This document shows positions 2,412 to 47,410 of a stretch of 64,000 bases of DNA, piece after piece; the stretch's first letter is position 1, and the number at the start of each line of letters is the position of its first letter. Origin of the DNA: Eledone cirrhosa (taxonomy: Eukaryota); contig OZ024747.1 of the NCBI GenBank assembly GCA_964016885.1, forward strand, positions 53,072,001 to 53,136,000. The letters are read 5' to 3'. Position numbers and translations under genes: made by a program. The notes beneath the pieces are model-generated. The model saw only the letters and a program-made list of their open reading frames with translations. It did no database searches and was not told where the DNA came from.

Positions 2412-2476
2412 ATTTCATTATACATATTTCAAGGGCCACCAAAAACAAACCATGGTGCGCTTTCATCAGATAAAAT
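2412..2476 (-). ncRNA. Type I hammerhead ribozyme (family A)
   Basis: ATTTTAT-CTGATGA-AAG...CTT-GAAA-TATGTAT-A-ATGAAAT. Confidence 0.8.
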
Positions 2477-2688
2477 ATAATATAGGTTAGTTTTATAAAT
2501 AAATATTGACATACCCTTAAAAAATGCAACCATTCTGGTTGGAATTTCCTGTTATAAAAATATTTAGCTTGTATCCCAACAAATTAAATATAACCTCTAC
2601 ACACACACACACACACACACACACACACACACACACACACACACACACACACACATATATATATATATATATATACACATATATATAT

Positions 2689-2800
2689 ATGGCTGAGTTG
2701 GTTAGAGAATTAGGTTCACAATCGCGAGGTTATGAATTCGATTCCCGGACCGGGCGATGCGTTATGTCCTTGAGCAAGACACTTTATTTCACATTGCTCC
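2689..2800 (+). mobile_element. tRNA-derived SINE (family S2), 5' part
   Basis: A-box TGGCTGAGTTGG, B-box-like GAATTCGATTCC, then TCCTTGAGCAAGACACTT. Confidence 0.8.
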
Positions 2801-2886
2801 TTCTACCTGGAGTTGCGATCGATATTAGCATATATATATATATATATATATATATATATATATATATATATATATATATATGTCGT

Positions 2887-3078
2887 CGGTTCGATTCCTG
2901 CGTTGCGAGTTGTGTTCTTGAGCAAAACACTTCATTTCACGTTGCTCCAGTATACTCAGCTGAAAATGAGTACCAGCAATAGCAGGGGGCTTAACTCTGC
3001 GATGGACTGGCGTCCTGTCCAGGATGGAGTTTTGTACTCTCATTCACATCACGCCATGAAATGAGCCTTAAGACGGAC
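2887..3078 (+). mobile_element. tRNA-derived SINE S2 with V/Meta-like central domain
   Basis: B-box GGTTCGATTCC, TTGAGCAAAACACTT, GCGATGGACTGGCGTCCTGTCCAGG; reverse copy at 16470-16650. Confidence 0.75.
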
Positions 3079-3342
3079 TTTAGACACTTATACATATATA
3101 TATATATATATAGATAACTTGGTCAGTAGCAATTGGAACACATGTATACTTATATCTGTATTCATCCCTCTCATATATCCAATTATATATATATATATAT
3201 ATATATATATATATATATATATATATATATATATATATAAAACCATTTAACATCTCAGGGTATGTCATATATATATATATATATATATATATATATATAT
3301 ATTAAACCATTTAACATCTCAGGGTATGTCATGTATCATTAT

Positions 3343-3395
3343 ATTTTGTCTGATGAGGACGTACTGTTGTACCTCTGAAATATGTATAATAAAAT
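3343..3395 (+). ncRNA. Type I hammerhead ribozyme (family A) within PLE-end fragment 3304-3530
   Basis: ATTTTGT-CTGATGA-GGACGTAC/TGTT/GTACCTCT-GAAA-TATGTAT-A-ATAAAAT. Confidence 0.85.
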
Positions 3396-42285: not shown

Positions 42286-43444
42286 CACTTTTTCTATCTT
42301 TTCTCACACACTCTCATTCTCTTCTTACTCTTTCTCCTTCATTCCACTCTCCTTCACTCTCCCAAACACACATCCTTTCATTTCTCTCCCTCTCTTTTTA
42401 CTTCTTTACACTTCTTCTCCTCTTCTCCCTCACACACACATACTCACACACACACTCAAACACACACACTCACACACATACTCTCACACACACACTCACA
42501 CACACTCACACACACATACTCACACACACACTCACACACACACTCACACACACTCACACACATACTCACACTCACTCACACACACATACTCACACACACA
42601 CACACACACACACACTCACATAAACACACACTCACACACACACACACACTCACACACACACACTCACACACACATACTCACACACACTCACACACACACT
42701 CACACACACTCACACACATACTCACACTCACTCACACACACATACACACACACACACACACACACACACTCACATAAACACACACTCACACACACACACA
42801 CACTCACACACACACACACTCACACACACATACTCACACACACTCACACACACAAACACACACTCACACACACACACACTCACACACAAACAAACAAACA
42901 CACACACTCACATACACACTCACATACACGCAAACACACTCACACACAAAAACACACATTCACACACACACACTCACACACACACACAAACACACACACA
43001 CCCACTCACACACACCCACACACACTCTCACACACACACAAACACACACACTCACACACTCACACACACACACAAACACACAAACTCACACACACACACT
43101 CACACACACACTCACACACACACACATACACTCATACTAACACTTCCCCCTCTCTCTCTCTCTCTCTGATTTCTCACACACCCGCACTCAGTGAAGTCCT
43201 GCTCAACTCACCACCCAGACACACTAAAACCTCTCCAACACCTTCCTTCCACCAACAATTATTATTGCCCCACCCAGAAACTAAAACCCCAACACTCCAT
43301 CACCATCACACCATCATGCCCTCCACACCACCACCACCGACACCACCACCATCCACCACTAGCACCACCACCACCACCACCACCACCACCACATATGATA
43401 ACACGGAATGAGCTAGCCTTAGAATTCAACAGCATGGCTATATG

Positions 43445-44085
43445 CGTGGGGTGTGGTGGCTGAGGGGTGGTGGCTGTAGTGTGGGGGCGGTGTGTGGTAG
43501 GATGACAATGGTGAGGTGTGGTGGCTGTGGGTTGGTGAAGGATGGTGGTGGTGAAGTGTGGTGGCTGGGGGTTGTTGTGGGATGGTGGTGGCGCGGTGTA
43601 GTGGCGAGGTGTGGTGGCAAGGTGTGGTGAGGTATGGTGTCTGAGAACTAGGGTGGTGTGGTGGTGTAGAGGTATGGTAGCTGTGAGGTGTAGTGGTGGT
43701 GTGTCTGAGGGGTGTGGTGGTGGTGAGGTGTAGTGGTGGTGGCTATGGGGTGTAGTGGTGGCGTATCTGTGAGGTGTAGTGGTGGTGGCTATGGGGTGTA
43801 GTGGTGGTGTGTCTGTGAGGTGTGGTGGTGGCGTGTTTGTGGAGTGTGATGGTGGTGAGGTGTAGTGGTGGTGTGTCTGTGAGGTGTAGTGGTAGTGTGT
43901 CTGTGAGGTGTAGTGGTGGTGGCTATGGGGTGTAATGGTGGTGTGTCTGTGAGGTGTAGTGGTGGTGTGTCTGTGAGGTGTGGTGGTGGTGTGTTTGTGG
44001 GGTGTGGTGGTGTCGAGGTGTAGTGGTGGTGTGTCTGTGGGGTGTGGTGGTGGCAAGGTGTAGTGGTGGTGTGTCTGGGGTGTGG
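43445..44085. repeat. GT-rich minisatellite (GTGTCTGTGAGGTGTAGTGGTGGT-like)
   Basis: Direct reading. Confidence 0.85.
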
Positions 44086-47000
44086 TCCTCTTATATATTC
44101 CTTGCATCACCTGAAAAGAATAAAATCTCTGACAAGAGACTACACTTGAGTAATTTGATCTATTTTTTCTGTATTTTATACTTAAATAACTCTCGTGGAA
44201 AACAAAGAAAAGAAAAAGTTTTAAATCATCTTCACCACCACCACCCCCATCACCACCACCTCCATCACCACCACCACCACCATCTCCATCACCACCATCA
44301 CCACCACCACCACCACTTCCATCACCACCACCTCCATCACCACCTCCATTACCACCATCACCACCACCACCACTATCACCACCACCTCCATCACCACCAC
44401 CATCACCACCTCCATCAGCACCACCACCGCCATCACCACCACCATCACCACCTCCATCAGCACCACCACCACCATCACCACCACCATCACCACCTCCATC
44501 ACCACCTCCATCACCACCACCACCACCACCACCAATACCAACACCACCACTCTCTCTCTGTCTCTGTCTCTTCGCTTCACTCTTTCTCTCTTTGTCTATC
44601 TGCCTGTCTCTCTATCTCTGTGAGAGACTGTCTCTCTCTCTCTGTTTCTCTCTCTCTCTCTCTGTCACTATCTCTTTATCCCTCTCTCTCATCCTGTCTC
44701 TATTTGTCTCTCTCACATCCACTTTCTGTCTCTCTTTCTTTCTCGATATCTCTGTTACAGACGGTATAGGCGGCGACGGTGGCGTTACTGTCGTATCATC
44801 ACACTTGTACCATCACCATCACCATCACTATCACCCTCATCATCATCATCACCATCATCATCACCATCACCATCACTATCACCCTCATCATCATCATCAC
44901 CATCATCATCACCATCACTATCACCCTCATCATCATCACCCTCATCATCATCACCATCATCATCATCACCATCACCATTACTATCACCCTCATCACCACC
45001 ATCACCACCACCACCAACATCATCACCATCAACACAACCACCAACATCATCATCACCATCACCCTCATCATCATCATCATCATTAACGTGATTATCATCA
45101 TCAATGCCATTATCAACATCAGCATCACAACTATCAATACCGCCGCCAATATTACCACCCTCACAACCATCACCATCATCATCATCATCGTCATTATCTC
45201 CCACCCTAGAAACAGCCCCCCCCCCACCATCATCATCATCATTCTCATCATCCGTTCTTTGTTAATATTTTATATTTCGTGTTTTTTTTTTGTCTAATCT
45301 GTGTTTTTATCTACTCTCTCTCTATCTCCCTCGCTCTCTCTCTATCCCCTCTCTCACTCTCTCTCTCTCGCTCTCTCTCTTTCTCTCTCCCTCTCTCACT
45401 CTCTCTCTCTCTCTTTCACTATGTGCGTGTCTGTGTATGTGATTGCATGTGTTTGTGTAGTGTGGCTATATGTAGGTATAAGATTGTATACGTGTGCATG
45501 CATATGTATGTATGTATGTATGTATGTATGTATGTATGTATGTATGTATGTATGTATGTATGTATGTATGTACGTATGTATGTATGTATTAAGTATGTAT
45601 ATGTATATATATGTATGTGTGTGTATGTATGTATATGTCTATGTATGTGTGTGTGTATATATGTGTGTATGTGTTTTGACGCGTGCTGAAATATTTTTCC
45701 TATTTATCCTACATCTTTCGTTATCATATATATACACACACACACGCACACATACACACTCACGCACACACACGCGCACACACACATATATACACACACA
45801 CACACGTATCTATATATAACATCATATTTATTTACTTATAGTTTTAGTTTAGGTTTCCGTTATATTCTATTCCCTTTTACCGTTATCAAATGGTGCTAAA
45901 CGAAGAGAAAGACAGTTCTGAATTTCATTTTGCCACCGCAAATGTAATTGCATTTTCTTAGAGTTTTGTTTCATGTCTATCTCCTTGTGAATATGATTTC
46001 ATAAATAATTGCTTAACTTTGAAGAAAACAGAAACAAAATCATGTAAAACGAAGAATAAAACTTACTTCAAGAAAACCTGAGTAAAAATAAAAAAAAACA
46101 AAACAAAATGGTTACAAAATAGAAACTGATTAAAGAAGGGAAAAAAAAAAGAAGGAATCTGATAATACCTAATAAAATAAATAAAACAAAAATAACAAAA
46201 GCAAAAAATGACTGAAATATTGTGAGAGAATATATATAAGAAATATAAAAAGAATGTTAGAATAAAATCTGGACAAAAAATATATGCAAAATGTATTATA
46301 TATATATATATATTTATATATATATGCACACACACACACACACACATATATATATATATATTTATATATATATGCACACACACACACACACACATATATA
46401 TATATATATATTTATATATATATATATATATATATATATATATATATATATATATACATATATACATAGATACATATATATATATATATATATATATATA
46501 TATATATATATATATATATATATATATATATATATATATATATACATATATACATAGATACATATATATATATATATATATATATATATATATATATATA
46601 TATATATATATATATATATATATACATATATATATACATATATATACATATATATATACATATATATACATATATATATACATATATACATATATATACA
46701 TATATATACATATATATATATACACATATATATATATATACATATATATATATATACATACATATATATGTATATATACATACATACATATATATGTATA
46801 TATATATATATATATATATATATATATATATATATATACACATACATACACACACACATATATATATTTATACATCTGTGTATATTATTATATTATACAT
46901 ACATATATATGTGTATAATACTTACATATATAAATACAAGTAAAATCCTGAGACACTTGAAAATAATATCAAGCTAGATATTGAAATAAAAACGTAATAC

Positions 47001-47181
47001 ATTCTATATCTCCACCGGACACCATTGTATTTCTAACAGTCAAACGTTGATAGAAATATCGGAAGCCGTGAGGCCTTCATCAGCGGAATTGCAATTAAAA
47101 ATAAAATTTCATGAGTAACTCATTATAGTAGTAGTAGTAGTAGTAGTAGTAGTAGTAGTAGTAGTAGTAGTAGTAGTATAT

Positions 47182-47378
47182 ACTTTGGTACGCTTTCATC
47201 AGATAAAATACAAAGCGTGTTTTATAAATTTTGACATAGCCAAAAGAACATACCTTATCAGTTGAAGTATCCAAGGATAATATCCTTGGATACTTCAACT
47301 GATAAGGTATGTTCTTTTGGCTATGTCAAAATTGATAAAACACACTTTGTATTTTATCTGATGAAAGCGTACCAAAGT
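47182..47378. repeat. Near-perfect 197-bp palindrome of a family A PLE end
   Basis: Arms 47182-47279 and 47281-47378 with a single-base centre. Confidence 0.95.
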
Positions 47379-47410
47379 TTTTGGTACCCTTGAAATATAT
47401 ATAATAGAAT
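47351..47410 (+). ncRNA. Type I hammerhead ribozyme (family A)
   Basis: ATTTTAT-CTGATGA-AAGCGTACCAAA/GTT/TTTGGTACCCTT-GAAA-TATATAT-A-ATAGAAT. Confidence 0.85.

What the first reader, a model, noticed from the sequence alone, without database searches (positions are those of the whole stretch)
2412..47410. Family A hammerheads: fixed stem I, swapped stem II, palindromic stem III
Nine copies keep stem I ATTTTRT with wobble-tolerated partners but carry at least three distinct stem II sequences that still pair (for example GGACGTAC/GTACCTCT, AAACGTAC/GTACTTTT, GGATGTAC/GTACATCT, AAGCGTACC/GGTACCCTT). Stem III is an 8-nt self-complementary ATATATAT, ATATGTAT, ATATGTGT or ATGCGCAT. The ATAT to GCGC switch preserves the palindrome, as expected for hammerheads that cleave as dimers.
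Basis: partly seen in the sequence, partly recalled or inferred. Interest (0 to 1): 0.75.

Follow-up and report, generated by a model that had tools for sequence, protein, structure and literature searches.

The report
Palindromic hammerheads of Hydra-type Penelope retrotransposons
The nine motifs are hammerhead-shaped RNA sequences left at the ends of truncated Penelope-type jumping genes, about 57,000 in this animal genome, and their short palindrome stays self-complementary as element lineages change its letters, so two copies likely pair up to cut their own RNA, a known design that is untested here.

Summary
All nine motifs are present as described. They are type I hammerheads in the end repeats of Hydra-clade Penelope-like elements (PLEs). 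There are 57,020 strict matches genome-wide (control 0), and complete copies flank an ~800-aa ORF with the clade's motifs. The window copies are ORF-less stubs, mostly beside (TA)n.

Stem II is not swapped: each type tracks its own flanks (84 of 89) and, where recovered, its own endonuclease.

The palindrome holds between lineages (ATAT, ATGT, GCGC, ACGT; in sister families also GATC, GTGC), with one exception (GTTC). Rare variants within lineages are neutral decay (~592 pair-keeping vs ~566 pair-breaking). Palindromic helix III and dimer cleavage in PLE hammerheads are published. There is no clear excess of insertions starting at the cut site, so the templates were likely uncut.

The scan has already reported this family, the palindrome and the mismatch in other windows of this genome. 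Verdict: a real, modest variant of a known system.

The parts
2412..2476 (-). Type I hammerhead, AAGCGCACC lineage; palindrome ATATGTAT 2427-2420, predicted cut after 2419; PLE 3' stub about 2359-2548 ending in (TA)n 50 nt after the cut site
3343..3395 (+). Hammerhead, GACGTAC lineage (short loop II); ATATGTAT 3380-3387; continues into the ACTC..GAGT tail segment; stub about 3305-3538
7030..7082 (-). Hammerhead, AAACGTAC/GTACTTTT stem II; ATATATAT 7045-7038; tail-type arm; no endonuclease recovered for this type
8425..8438 (-). 5' half of a hammerhead, inverted fragment beside the 8516 copy
8516..8579 (+). Hammerhead, AAGCGCACC lineage; ATATATAT 8564-8571; 3' end interrupted by another repeat from about 8590
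29398..29466 (-). Hammerhead, GAACGC/GCGC lineage; ATGCGCAT 29413-29406; long arm of a two-armed insertion (about 29364-29845) set between (TA)n runs
29703..29845 (+). Inverted short arm that begins inside the hammerhead (3' half, ATACGCAT) and runs through the tail into the element's 5' UTR
30444..30508 (-). Hammerhead, GACGTAC lineage; ATATGTGT 30459-30452 (single mutation); one arm of an inverted pair between (TA)n runs (about 30400-31149)
30936..31000 (+). Hammerhead, GACGTAC lineage, opposite arm of the same insertion; ATATGTAT 30985-30992; the only copy with stem II pair 4 closed (U-A)
39009..39077 (-). Hammerhead, GAACGC/GCGC lineage; ATGCGCAT 39024-39017; stub 38950-39140 ending in (TA)n 43 nt after the cut site
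47196..47209 (-). 5' half of the inverted arm of the 47351 insertion, broken by a (TAG)n run
47351..47410 (+). Hammerhead, AAGCGTACC lineage; ATATATAT 47395-47402; tail-type arm
61921..61979 (+).

Best explanation
The nine motifs are type I hammerhead sequences in the end repeats of Hydra-clade Penelope-like retrotransposons, left here as ORF-less stubs, and in complete tandem elements two copies likely pair through the 8-nt palindrome to form a double hammerhead that would cut the element's RNA. Shown: the motifs, their place in the elements, the ORF and its clade motifs, direct-repeat copies 3.3-4.1 kb apart around the ORF, lineage-level retention of self-complementarity, and a fixed C-Y mismatch in stem II. 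Inferred: the monomer is weak because stem III is only A-U/U-A over a tetraloop. In the dimer, stems I and III are exchanged between the two repeats while stem II stays private, which is why stem II is the freest part. Cutting is slow or gated, probably by the element's own protein as in the anole PLE, because new insertions end 40-55 nt downstream of the cut site and were therefore copied from RNA that was uncut (or religated) there. The window copies are likely inert.
For: Element context: L042 has an inverted hammerhead, then hammerhead-ORF-hammerhead in direct repeat; L081 has the same layout for a sister family. P0001 (821 aa) shows RW, DKT, YRDD, CxCX5C, CxxC and CxH motifs, matching the Hydra-clade definition (PMC8557442 section 11) and, by eye, the published Hydra-1_Obim protein. 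Ends fall at (TA)n about 40-55 nt after the cut site, or run into a tail arm. No ORF remnant in the window. Palindrome: ATAT+ATGT+GCGC is about 54,099 of 57,020 matches (by subtraction). ACGT is mostly carried by subfamilies with their own stem II (62 of 100 rows are ACGT). In sister families 86 of 95 listed rows are self-complementary, including 49 GATC, which differs by transversions. Shuffle of 7 lineage states: 13 of 14 cells paired, P about 0.006, not corrected for relatedness. Monomer stem III is unfavourable in 9 of 9; self-duplex -2.2 to -10.5 kcal/mol. Literature: palindromic helix III and dimer-only cleavage in PLE hammerheads (PMC4209133; PMC6765202); uncleaved RNA as reverse-transcription template and protein-assisted cleavage (PMC11167929).
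Against: No cleavage data. Junctions exactly at the predicted cut site (about 80, from about 35 of 100 rows of 232) are about twice those 3 nt upstream (about 40) but not above those 9 nt downstream (about 120, wide error), so the genome gives no clear trace of cutting. A GTTC sub-lineage (6 of 95 rows) has a central U-U mismatch. Within lineages, pair-keeping and pair-breaking single changes are equally common (about 592 vs 566), so copy counts add no support. Only about 7 states from an unknown number of independent changes carry the covariation, and the tree has 2 of 9 well-supported branches. AU-only palindromes give weak duplexes (-2.2 to -3.2). Invertebrate hammerheads with a 2-bp helix III and tetraloop can cleave well as monomers (PMC7229834 passages). 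Pfam and PDB gave no RT or GIY-YIG hit for P0001, so the domain names rest on motifs and on comparison with the paper.
Confidence: 0.74

Rival explanations
1. Same elements, but the hammerhead works as a monomer held in its active fold by the element's RT-endonuclease protein (or by a tertiary contact at the C-Y mismatch); the palindrome would then serve protein binding or RNA pairing for two-armed insertion rather than catalysis.
For: The anole PLE hammerhead cleaves only when its protein is added (PMC11167929). 2-bp-plus-tetraloop helix III works in monomers of invertebrate retrozymes (PMC7229834). The fixed C-Y mismatch, 97 of 100, suggests a contact site. Two-armed insertions are common.
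Against: A monomer loop has no need to stay self-complementary, yet 6 of 7 lineage states are. The A-U/U-A stem III is weaker than the A-U/C-G start seen in all 26 Hydra rows of File S2 (read by eye).
Confidence: 0.15
2. The fold no longer cuts; it is kept as a structural recognition element next to the reverse-transcription start site.
For: No clear excess of junctions at the cut site. Insertions retain sequence on both sides of it. The first pair of stem II is A-U, G-U or U-U rather than the canonical G-C. Hammerhead mutants did not affect insertion in vitro in the anole element.
Against: The catalytic core and AUA triplet are kept across lineages whose endonucleases are only about 48-50% identical (the core was part of my search pattern, so this shows retention, not its rate). 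U before GAAA and U-U at pair 1 also occur in published Hydra hammerheads.
Confidence: 0.07
3. Stem II is an exchangeable module moved between elements by recombination onto a fixed stem I/III scaffold.
For: Stem I is the same across lineages whose stem II differs completely. 5 of 89 copies have a nearest flank neighbour of another stem II type.
Against: 84 of 89 are concordant. Four misses are among closely related AAGCG/AGGCAT types, and the fifth is a type I had lumped with another. Each type with a recovered endonuclease has its own. All stem II types share the pair-4 mismatch, as expected from common descent.
Confidence: 0.04

Closest known systems
Hydra-clade Penelope-like elements and their hammerheads (Craig et al. 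2021, PMC8557442; includes Hydra-1_Obim of an octopus)
   Same: Single ORF with RW(K), DKT, CxCX5C, CxxC/CxH motifs; about 3.3-4 kb unit; (TA)n targets; inverted 5'-truncated arm and tail; hammerhead near the 3' end, often with U before GAAA and U-U at the base of stem II.
   Different: All 26 Hydra rows of File S2 (read by eye) start stem III with A-C...G-U and are drawn with 3-4 bp around a 1-3-nt loop. Here stem III is A-U...A-U around 4 nt, an even 8-nt palindrome. Stem II is longer and has a fixed C-Y mismatch at pair 4, which is paired in the published rows I checked (Penelope-1_HM, Hydra-1_Ajap, Hydra-1_Obim). Copy number is at least 72,000 motifs with sister families (57,020 + 15,057, with slight overlap).
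[quoted passage not shown]
   Same: Type I fold in pLTRs, palindromic 15.2-16.2/loop III, long helix II, many sequence families per genome, mostly solitary truncated copies, opposite-strand pairs 100-700 bp apart, predicted dimer cleavage.
   Different: No unpaired nucleotide plus G10.1-C11.1 pair at the base of helix II; stem I is 7-8 bp rather than 4-5; C-Y mismatch in helix II.
Axolotl retrozyme hammerhead HHR_Amex2 (Cervera and de la Pena 2020, PMC7229834)
   Same: 2-bp helix III with tetraloop, U-U or weak base of helix II, weak as a monomer and efficient as a dimer.
   Different: Retrozymes are non-coding 170-400-nt tandem repeats; family A belongs to protein-coding PLEs and is not in short tandem arrays here.
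Poseidon element of Anolis (Frangieh et al. 2024, PMC11167929)
   Same: Insertions end at two sites downstream of the hammerhead (end and tail); AT-rich targets; uncut RNA as template.
   Different: Different PLE clade; there the ORF starts inside the hammerhead, here it starts about 200 nt after it.

Membership tests
Type I hammerhead ribozyme | Core CUGANGA, GAAA and NUH in type I order | tested here: met
   9 of 9
Type I hammerhead ribozyme | Stems I and II pair, with compensatory changes | tested here: met
   Stem II pairs 2, 3, 5, 6, 7 are paired in 91-97 of 100 distinct copies with several pair types; stem I changes U-A/C-G between families
Type I hammerhead ribozyme | Canonical G10.1-C11.1 pair and stable monomeric stem III | tested here: not met
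   Pair 1 is A-U 45, G-U 34, U-U 21 of 100; monomer stem III unfavourable. These are variant features also seen in PLE-type hammerheads
Type I hammerhead ribozyme | Self-cleavage at NUH | not testable with these tools
   No assay; the indirect junction test was inconclusive
Dimer-type PLE hammerheads | Self-complementary stem III/loop III | tested here: met
   9 of 9 window copies; 6 of 7 lineage states, exception GTTC
Dimer-type PLE hammerheads | Two same-strand copies in the repeats flanking the ORF | tested here: met
   L042 (3.3 kb apart) and L081 (4.1 kb); not true of the window stubs
Dimer-type PLE hammerheads | Dimer cleaves faster than monomer | not testable with these tools
   Needs in vitro kinetics
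Hydra-clade PLE | Single ORF, RT then C-terminal GIY-YIG-type endonuclease | tested here: met
   P0001 motifs YRDD and IYEC..YFGST and by-eye match to the published Hydra alignments; Pfam and PDB gave no hit
Hydra-clade PLE | RWK, DKT, CxCX5C linker, CxxC and CxH motifs | tested here: met
   P0001 has RWT, DKT, CNCRIKNKC, CNLC, CLH; L081 has RWK, DKT
Hydra-clade PLE | Insertion into (TA)n, with inverted arm and tail | tested here: met
Hydra-clade PLE | Placement in an RT phylogeny with reference PLE clades | not tested
   Reference sequences were seen only in a supplement and not loaded
Non-LTR retrozyme | Non-coding 170-400-nt tandem repeats | tested here: not met
   Family A copies link to coding PLEs; no such array among the 150 of 192 tandem-repeat rows shown. 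The GATC sister family showed no ORF in L082 and may be non-autonomous

The most novel reading that the evidence does not exclude
Stems I and III are a shared inter-copy interface. Family A lineages keep one stem I and, apart from GCGC, mutually compatible palindromes (0 mismatches among the seven non-GCGC window copies), so hammerheads of different PLE lineages could form mixed double hammerheads and cut each other's RNA. Lineages that moved to GCGC or GATC would escape this cross-talk, and the fixed C-Y mismatch would be the site where the element's protein switches cleavage on. That would be RNA-level interference between transposon families.
Probability: 0.08. Interest if true: 0.65.

Novelty: new variant of a known kind. 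Interest (0 to 1): 0.3.

Why it matters
The role of PLE hammerheads is still open: they are nearly universal yet dispensable for insertion in vitro. This genome offers a natural series of lineages with different palindromes (ATAT, ATGT, ACGT, GCGC, GATC, GTGC and a GTTC intermediate), predicted duplex strengths from about -2 to -10 kcal/mol, a fixed stem II mismatch and young intact ORFs. The dimer and protein-assist models can therefore be tested with natural variants. The association and the dimer design are themselves published, and the nine window copies are likely inert stubs.

Tried and rejected
Rfam scan: only microsatellite-driven miRNA hits among the 150 rows shown. Pfam and PDB searches gave nothing meaningful for P0001/P0002. 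The protein atlas returned no result. The homologue search gave 25 relatives at 31-42% identity, 24 unnamed and one mis-named protein of an octopod. Sequencing runs: no RNA holder listed; laying contigs of two runs of unrecorded kind showed cover only and cannot show ends or expression. Mirror-mutation test for selection among copies: no asymmetry (GTGC ~374 vs GCAC ~339; GCGT ~115 vs ACGC ~146; GTAT ~102 vs ATAC ~81), so copy-level covariation such as a plain R-scape run on all copies would mostly count inheritance. Hidden non-RYRY lineage in family A: none seen in the 100 listed of 189 YNNN or 100 of 332 RRNN; 582 other matches were not listed. Cut-site junction test inconclusive. Endonucleases were not recovered for the AAGCGTACC and AAACGTAC types or the GATC family; L059 and L087 could not be assigned. 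The endonuclease tree was too weak to order the palindrome changes. Palindrome as a strict family barcode rejected: ATAT occurs in several lineages and in the sister family. Module swapping rejected. Lunse et al. 2017 is not held; it may already describe some of these features.
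Full report
Observation. A pattern scan finds nine complete family A motifs in 2412-47410 and three partial ones. All nine have ATTTTRT pairing with its 3' partner over 7 bp, the core CTGATGA...GAAA, an 8-mer ATATATAT (3), ATATGTAT (3), ATGCGCAT (2) or ATATGTGT (1), and an AUA cleavage triplet. The motif was found 0 times in 200 shuffled windows. The window is AT-rich, microsatellite-filled animal DNA from a 3.0-Gb genome. That genome holds 55,917 matches with RYRY in the middle of stem III and 57,020 with any four bases, against 0 for the reversed controls.

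What the motifs belong to. In the genome the motifs often come as outward-facing inverted pairs 0.1-5 kb apart. Among 20 fetched stretches, several have an ORF between the pair, and L042 shows the full PLE layout: inverted hammerhead, hammerhead, ORF, hammerhead, (TA)n (part of the output was cut). The ORF product P0001 (821 aa stop to stop) carries RW, DKT, YRDD, CxCX5C, a GIY-YIG-like segment, CxxC and CxH. These are the features by which Craig et al. define the Hydra clade (PMC8557442 section 11), and the protein resembles their Hydra-1_Obim by eye. Pfam and PDB did not recognise it. The only named homologue among 25 is a mis-named octopod protein, so a cephalopod host is an inference. The window has no ORF remnant. 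Its copies are 3' stubs of 150-370 bases; two form complete two-armed insertions between (TA)n runs (29364-29845, 30400-31149). One arm typically stops at (TA)n about 40-55 nt after the cut site and the other runs on through an ACTC..GAGT segment, the end-plus-tail signature described for PLEs.

Stem II is lineage, not swap. With stem II and the core left out, 84 of 89 copies have a nearest flank neighbour of the same stem II type (shuffled mean 21, maximum 43 in 2000; some rows are two arms of one insertion). Five types plus the GAACGC subtype could be tied by adjacency to an endonuclease. Four are 47-50% identical to P0001 and GAACGC is 57-75%. None was recovered for AAGCGTACC or AAACGTAC. 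The tree of 12 segments has only 2 of 9 well-supported branches and cannot order events.

Stem III. I counted the first 100 rows of each search by eye and scaled to the totals, so these are estimates. Minor RYRY states sum to about 1,818, leaving about 54,099 for ATAT, ATGT and GCGC. ACGT (about 239) sits mostly in subfamilies with their own stem II. States starting with Y (189) or RR (332) look like scattered single mutants in the rows listed; 582 others were not listed. Because these palindromes read the same on both DNA strands, neutral decay predicts equal numbers of mirror mutants, and that is seen: about 592 that keep a wobble pair versus about 566 that break pairing. The evidence therefore lies only between lineages. 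Relaxing stem I gave 15,057 further matches (control 73). Dropping 5 rows that belong to family A, the 95 left are GATC 49, ATAT 28, GTGC 6, GTTC 6, ATGT 2, and GTAC, ATGC, ACAT and GACC 1 each; 86 are self-complementary. Six of seven lineage states are self-complementary; only 36 of 256 4-mers would be, though 9 of 16 RYRY ones would. A column shuffle gives P about 0.006, uncorrected for relatedness. The states can be linked through wobble or U-U intermediates (ATAT-ATGT-ACGT; GTGC-GTTC-GATC; my inference). GTTC is a real exception.

Folding. None of the nine predicted lowest-energy monomer folds contains stem III, and forcing its two pairs costs +1.4 to +3.5 kcal/mol. The 8-mers self-pair at -2.2 to -10.5 kcal/mol. 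In a double hammerhead both stem I and stem III are exchanged between copies (established model; Forster 1988 as cited in PMC4209133). The seven non-GCGC window copies are all mutually compatible, while GCGC gives 1-2 mismatches with them.

Counting from the core in 100 distinct copies of all families, stem II pairs 2, 3, 5, 6 and 7 are paired in 91-97 copies with changing pair types, but pair 4 is C-C (69) or C-U (28) and paired in 1. Pair 1 is A-U, G-U or U-U. In File S2 of Craig et al. (26 Hydra rows, read by eye) stem III always begins A-C, and pair 4 is closed in the three rows I checked. One search for 'hammerhead', 'stem II' and 'C-C mismatch' found 0 papers; searches for hammerhead with octopus or cephalopod found no study of these motifs. 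I found the mismatch and then saw that four earlier notes of this scan report it in this genome.

Is the RNA cut? In the GCGC group (48 of the first 100 rows) I looked for arms that begin exactly at the cut site. About 35 of 100 rows of 232 are junctions (about 80), against about 13 of 100 of 289 three bases upstream (about 40) and about 4 of 100 of 3,008 nine bases downstream (about 120, imprecise). There is no clear spike, and such arms are well under 1% of copies. Insertions keep both sides of the site, so their templates were uncut or religated, as reported for the anole element, whose hammerhead cleaves only with its protein (PMC11167929).

Mechanism and verdict. Most likely a slow, dimer-dependent hammerhead that processes tandem PLE transcripts while leaving enough uncut RNA for reverse transcription (0.74). 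The rivals are a protein-held monomer (0.15), a non-cutting recognition element (0.07) and module swapping (0.04). The palindrome and dimer model for PLE hammerheads is published, so this is a variant of a known kind: an even A-U-closed 8-nt palindrome and a C-Y mismatch in a very large Hydra-clade expansion.

Papers seen: PMC4209133, parts 1-2 of 4 (results and discussion; no figures or supplements); bioRxiv 10.1101/2021.04.23.441226, passages and section 11; PMC8557442, passages, section 11, supplement searches and part 2; PMC6765202 and PMC7229834, passages; PMC11167929, parts 1-2 of 4; Lunse 2017 and Forster 1988, citations only.

Noticed in passing
window 30092-30154(+), 60582-60644(-), 21190-21252(-): A second hammerhead family (stem I AGTCA/TGACT, unpaired G then G-C at the base of stem II) whose stem III 6-mer is AGAACT, AGGACT or AGAAAT, not a strict palindrome; it lies in inverted-arm repeats up to 1 kb long.
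   Followed up: no
window 61921-61979(+); L081:2520-6681: Sister Hydra-type family with stem I ACTGC/GCAGT, ATATATAT and the C-C mismatch; L081 holds a frameshifted ORF between direct repeats 4.1 kb apart.
   Followed up: partly
L082:2055-5226; L051-L077: Abundant ATGATCAT family (about half of the 15,057 matches by the first 100 rows); direct copies 3.1 kb apart in L082 enclose no ORF related to P0001, so it may be a non-autonomous PLE derivative. It has a GTTC sub-lineage.
   Followed up: partly
window 7879-7915(+): Another hammerhead-like core (CTGACGA...GAAA) in a repeat with a 258-base match at 61646-61903.
   Followed up: no
window 30060-30130 upstream motif and all family A tail arms, e.g. 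31061-31083: Family A lineages share a short TATGTCA-like motif 20-35 nt upstream of stem I (most non-GCGC types) and an ACTC..GAGT(GC) hairpin-like segment 50-64 nt after the cut site, candidates for the reverse-transcription start signal.
   Followed up: partly
window 8516-8579 and neighbours: The window has 8 strict family A matches in 64 kb against a genome mean of about 1.2, fitting its high (TA)n content.
   Followed up: no
G000:C1:244900702, C2:94610973, C1:70047332: A few two-armed insertions have both arms joined exactly at the predicted cut site, forming a perfect palindrome; too few to read as evidence of cleavage.
   Followed up: no
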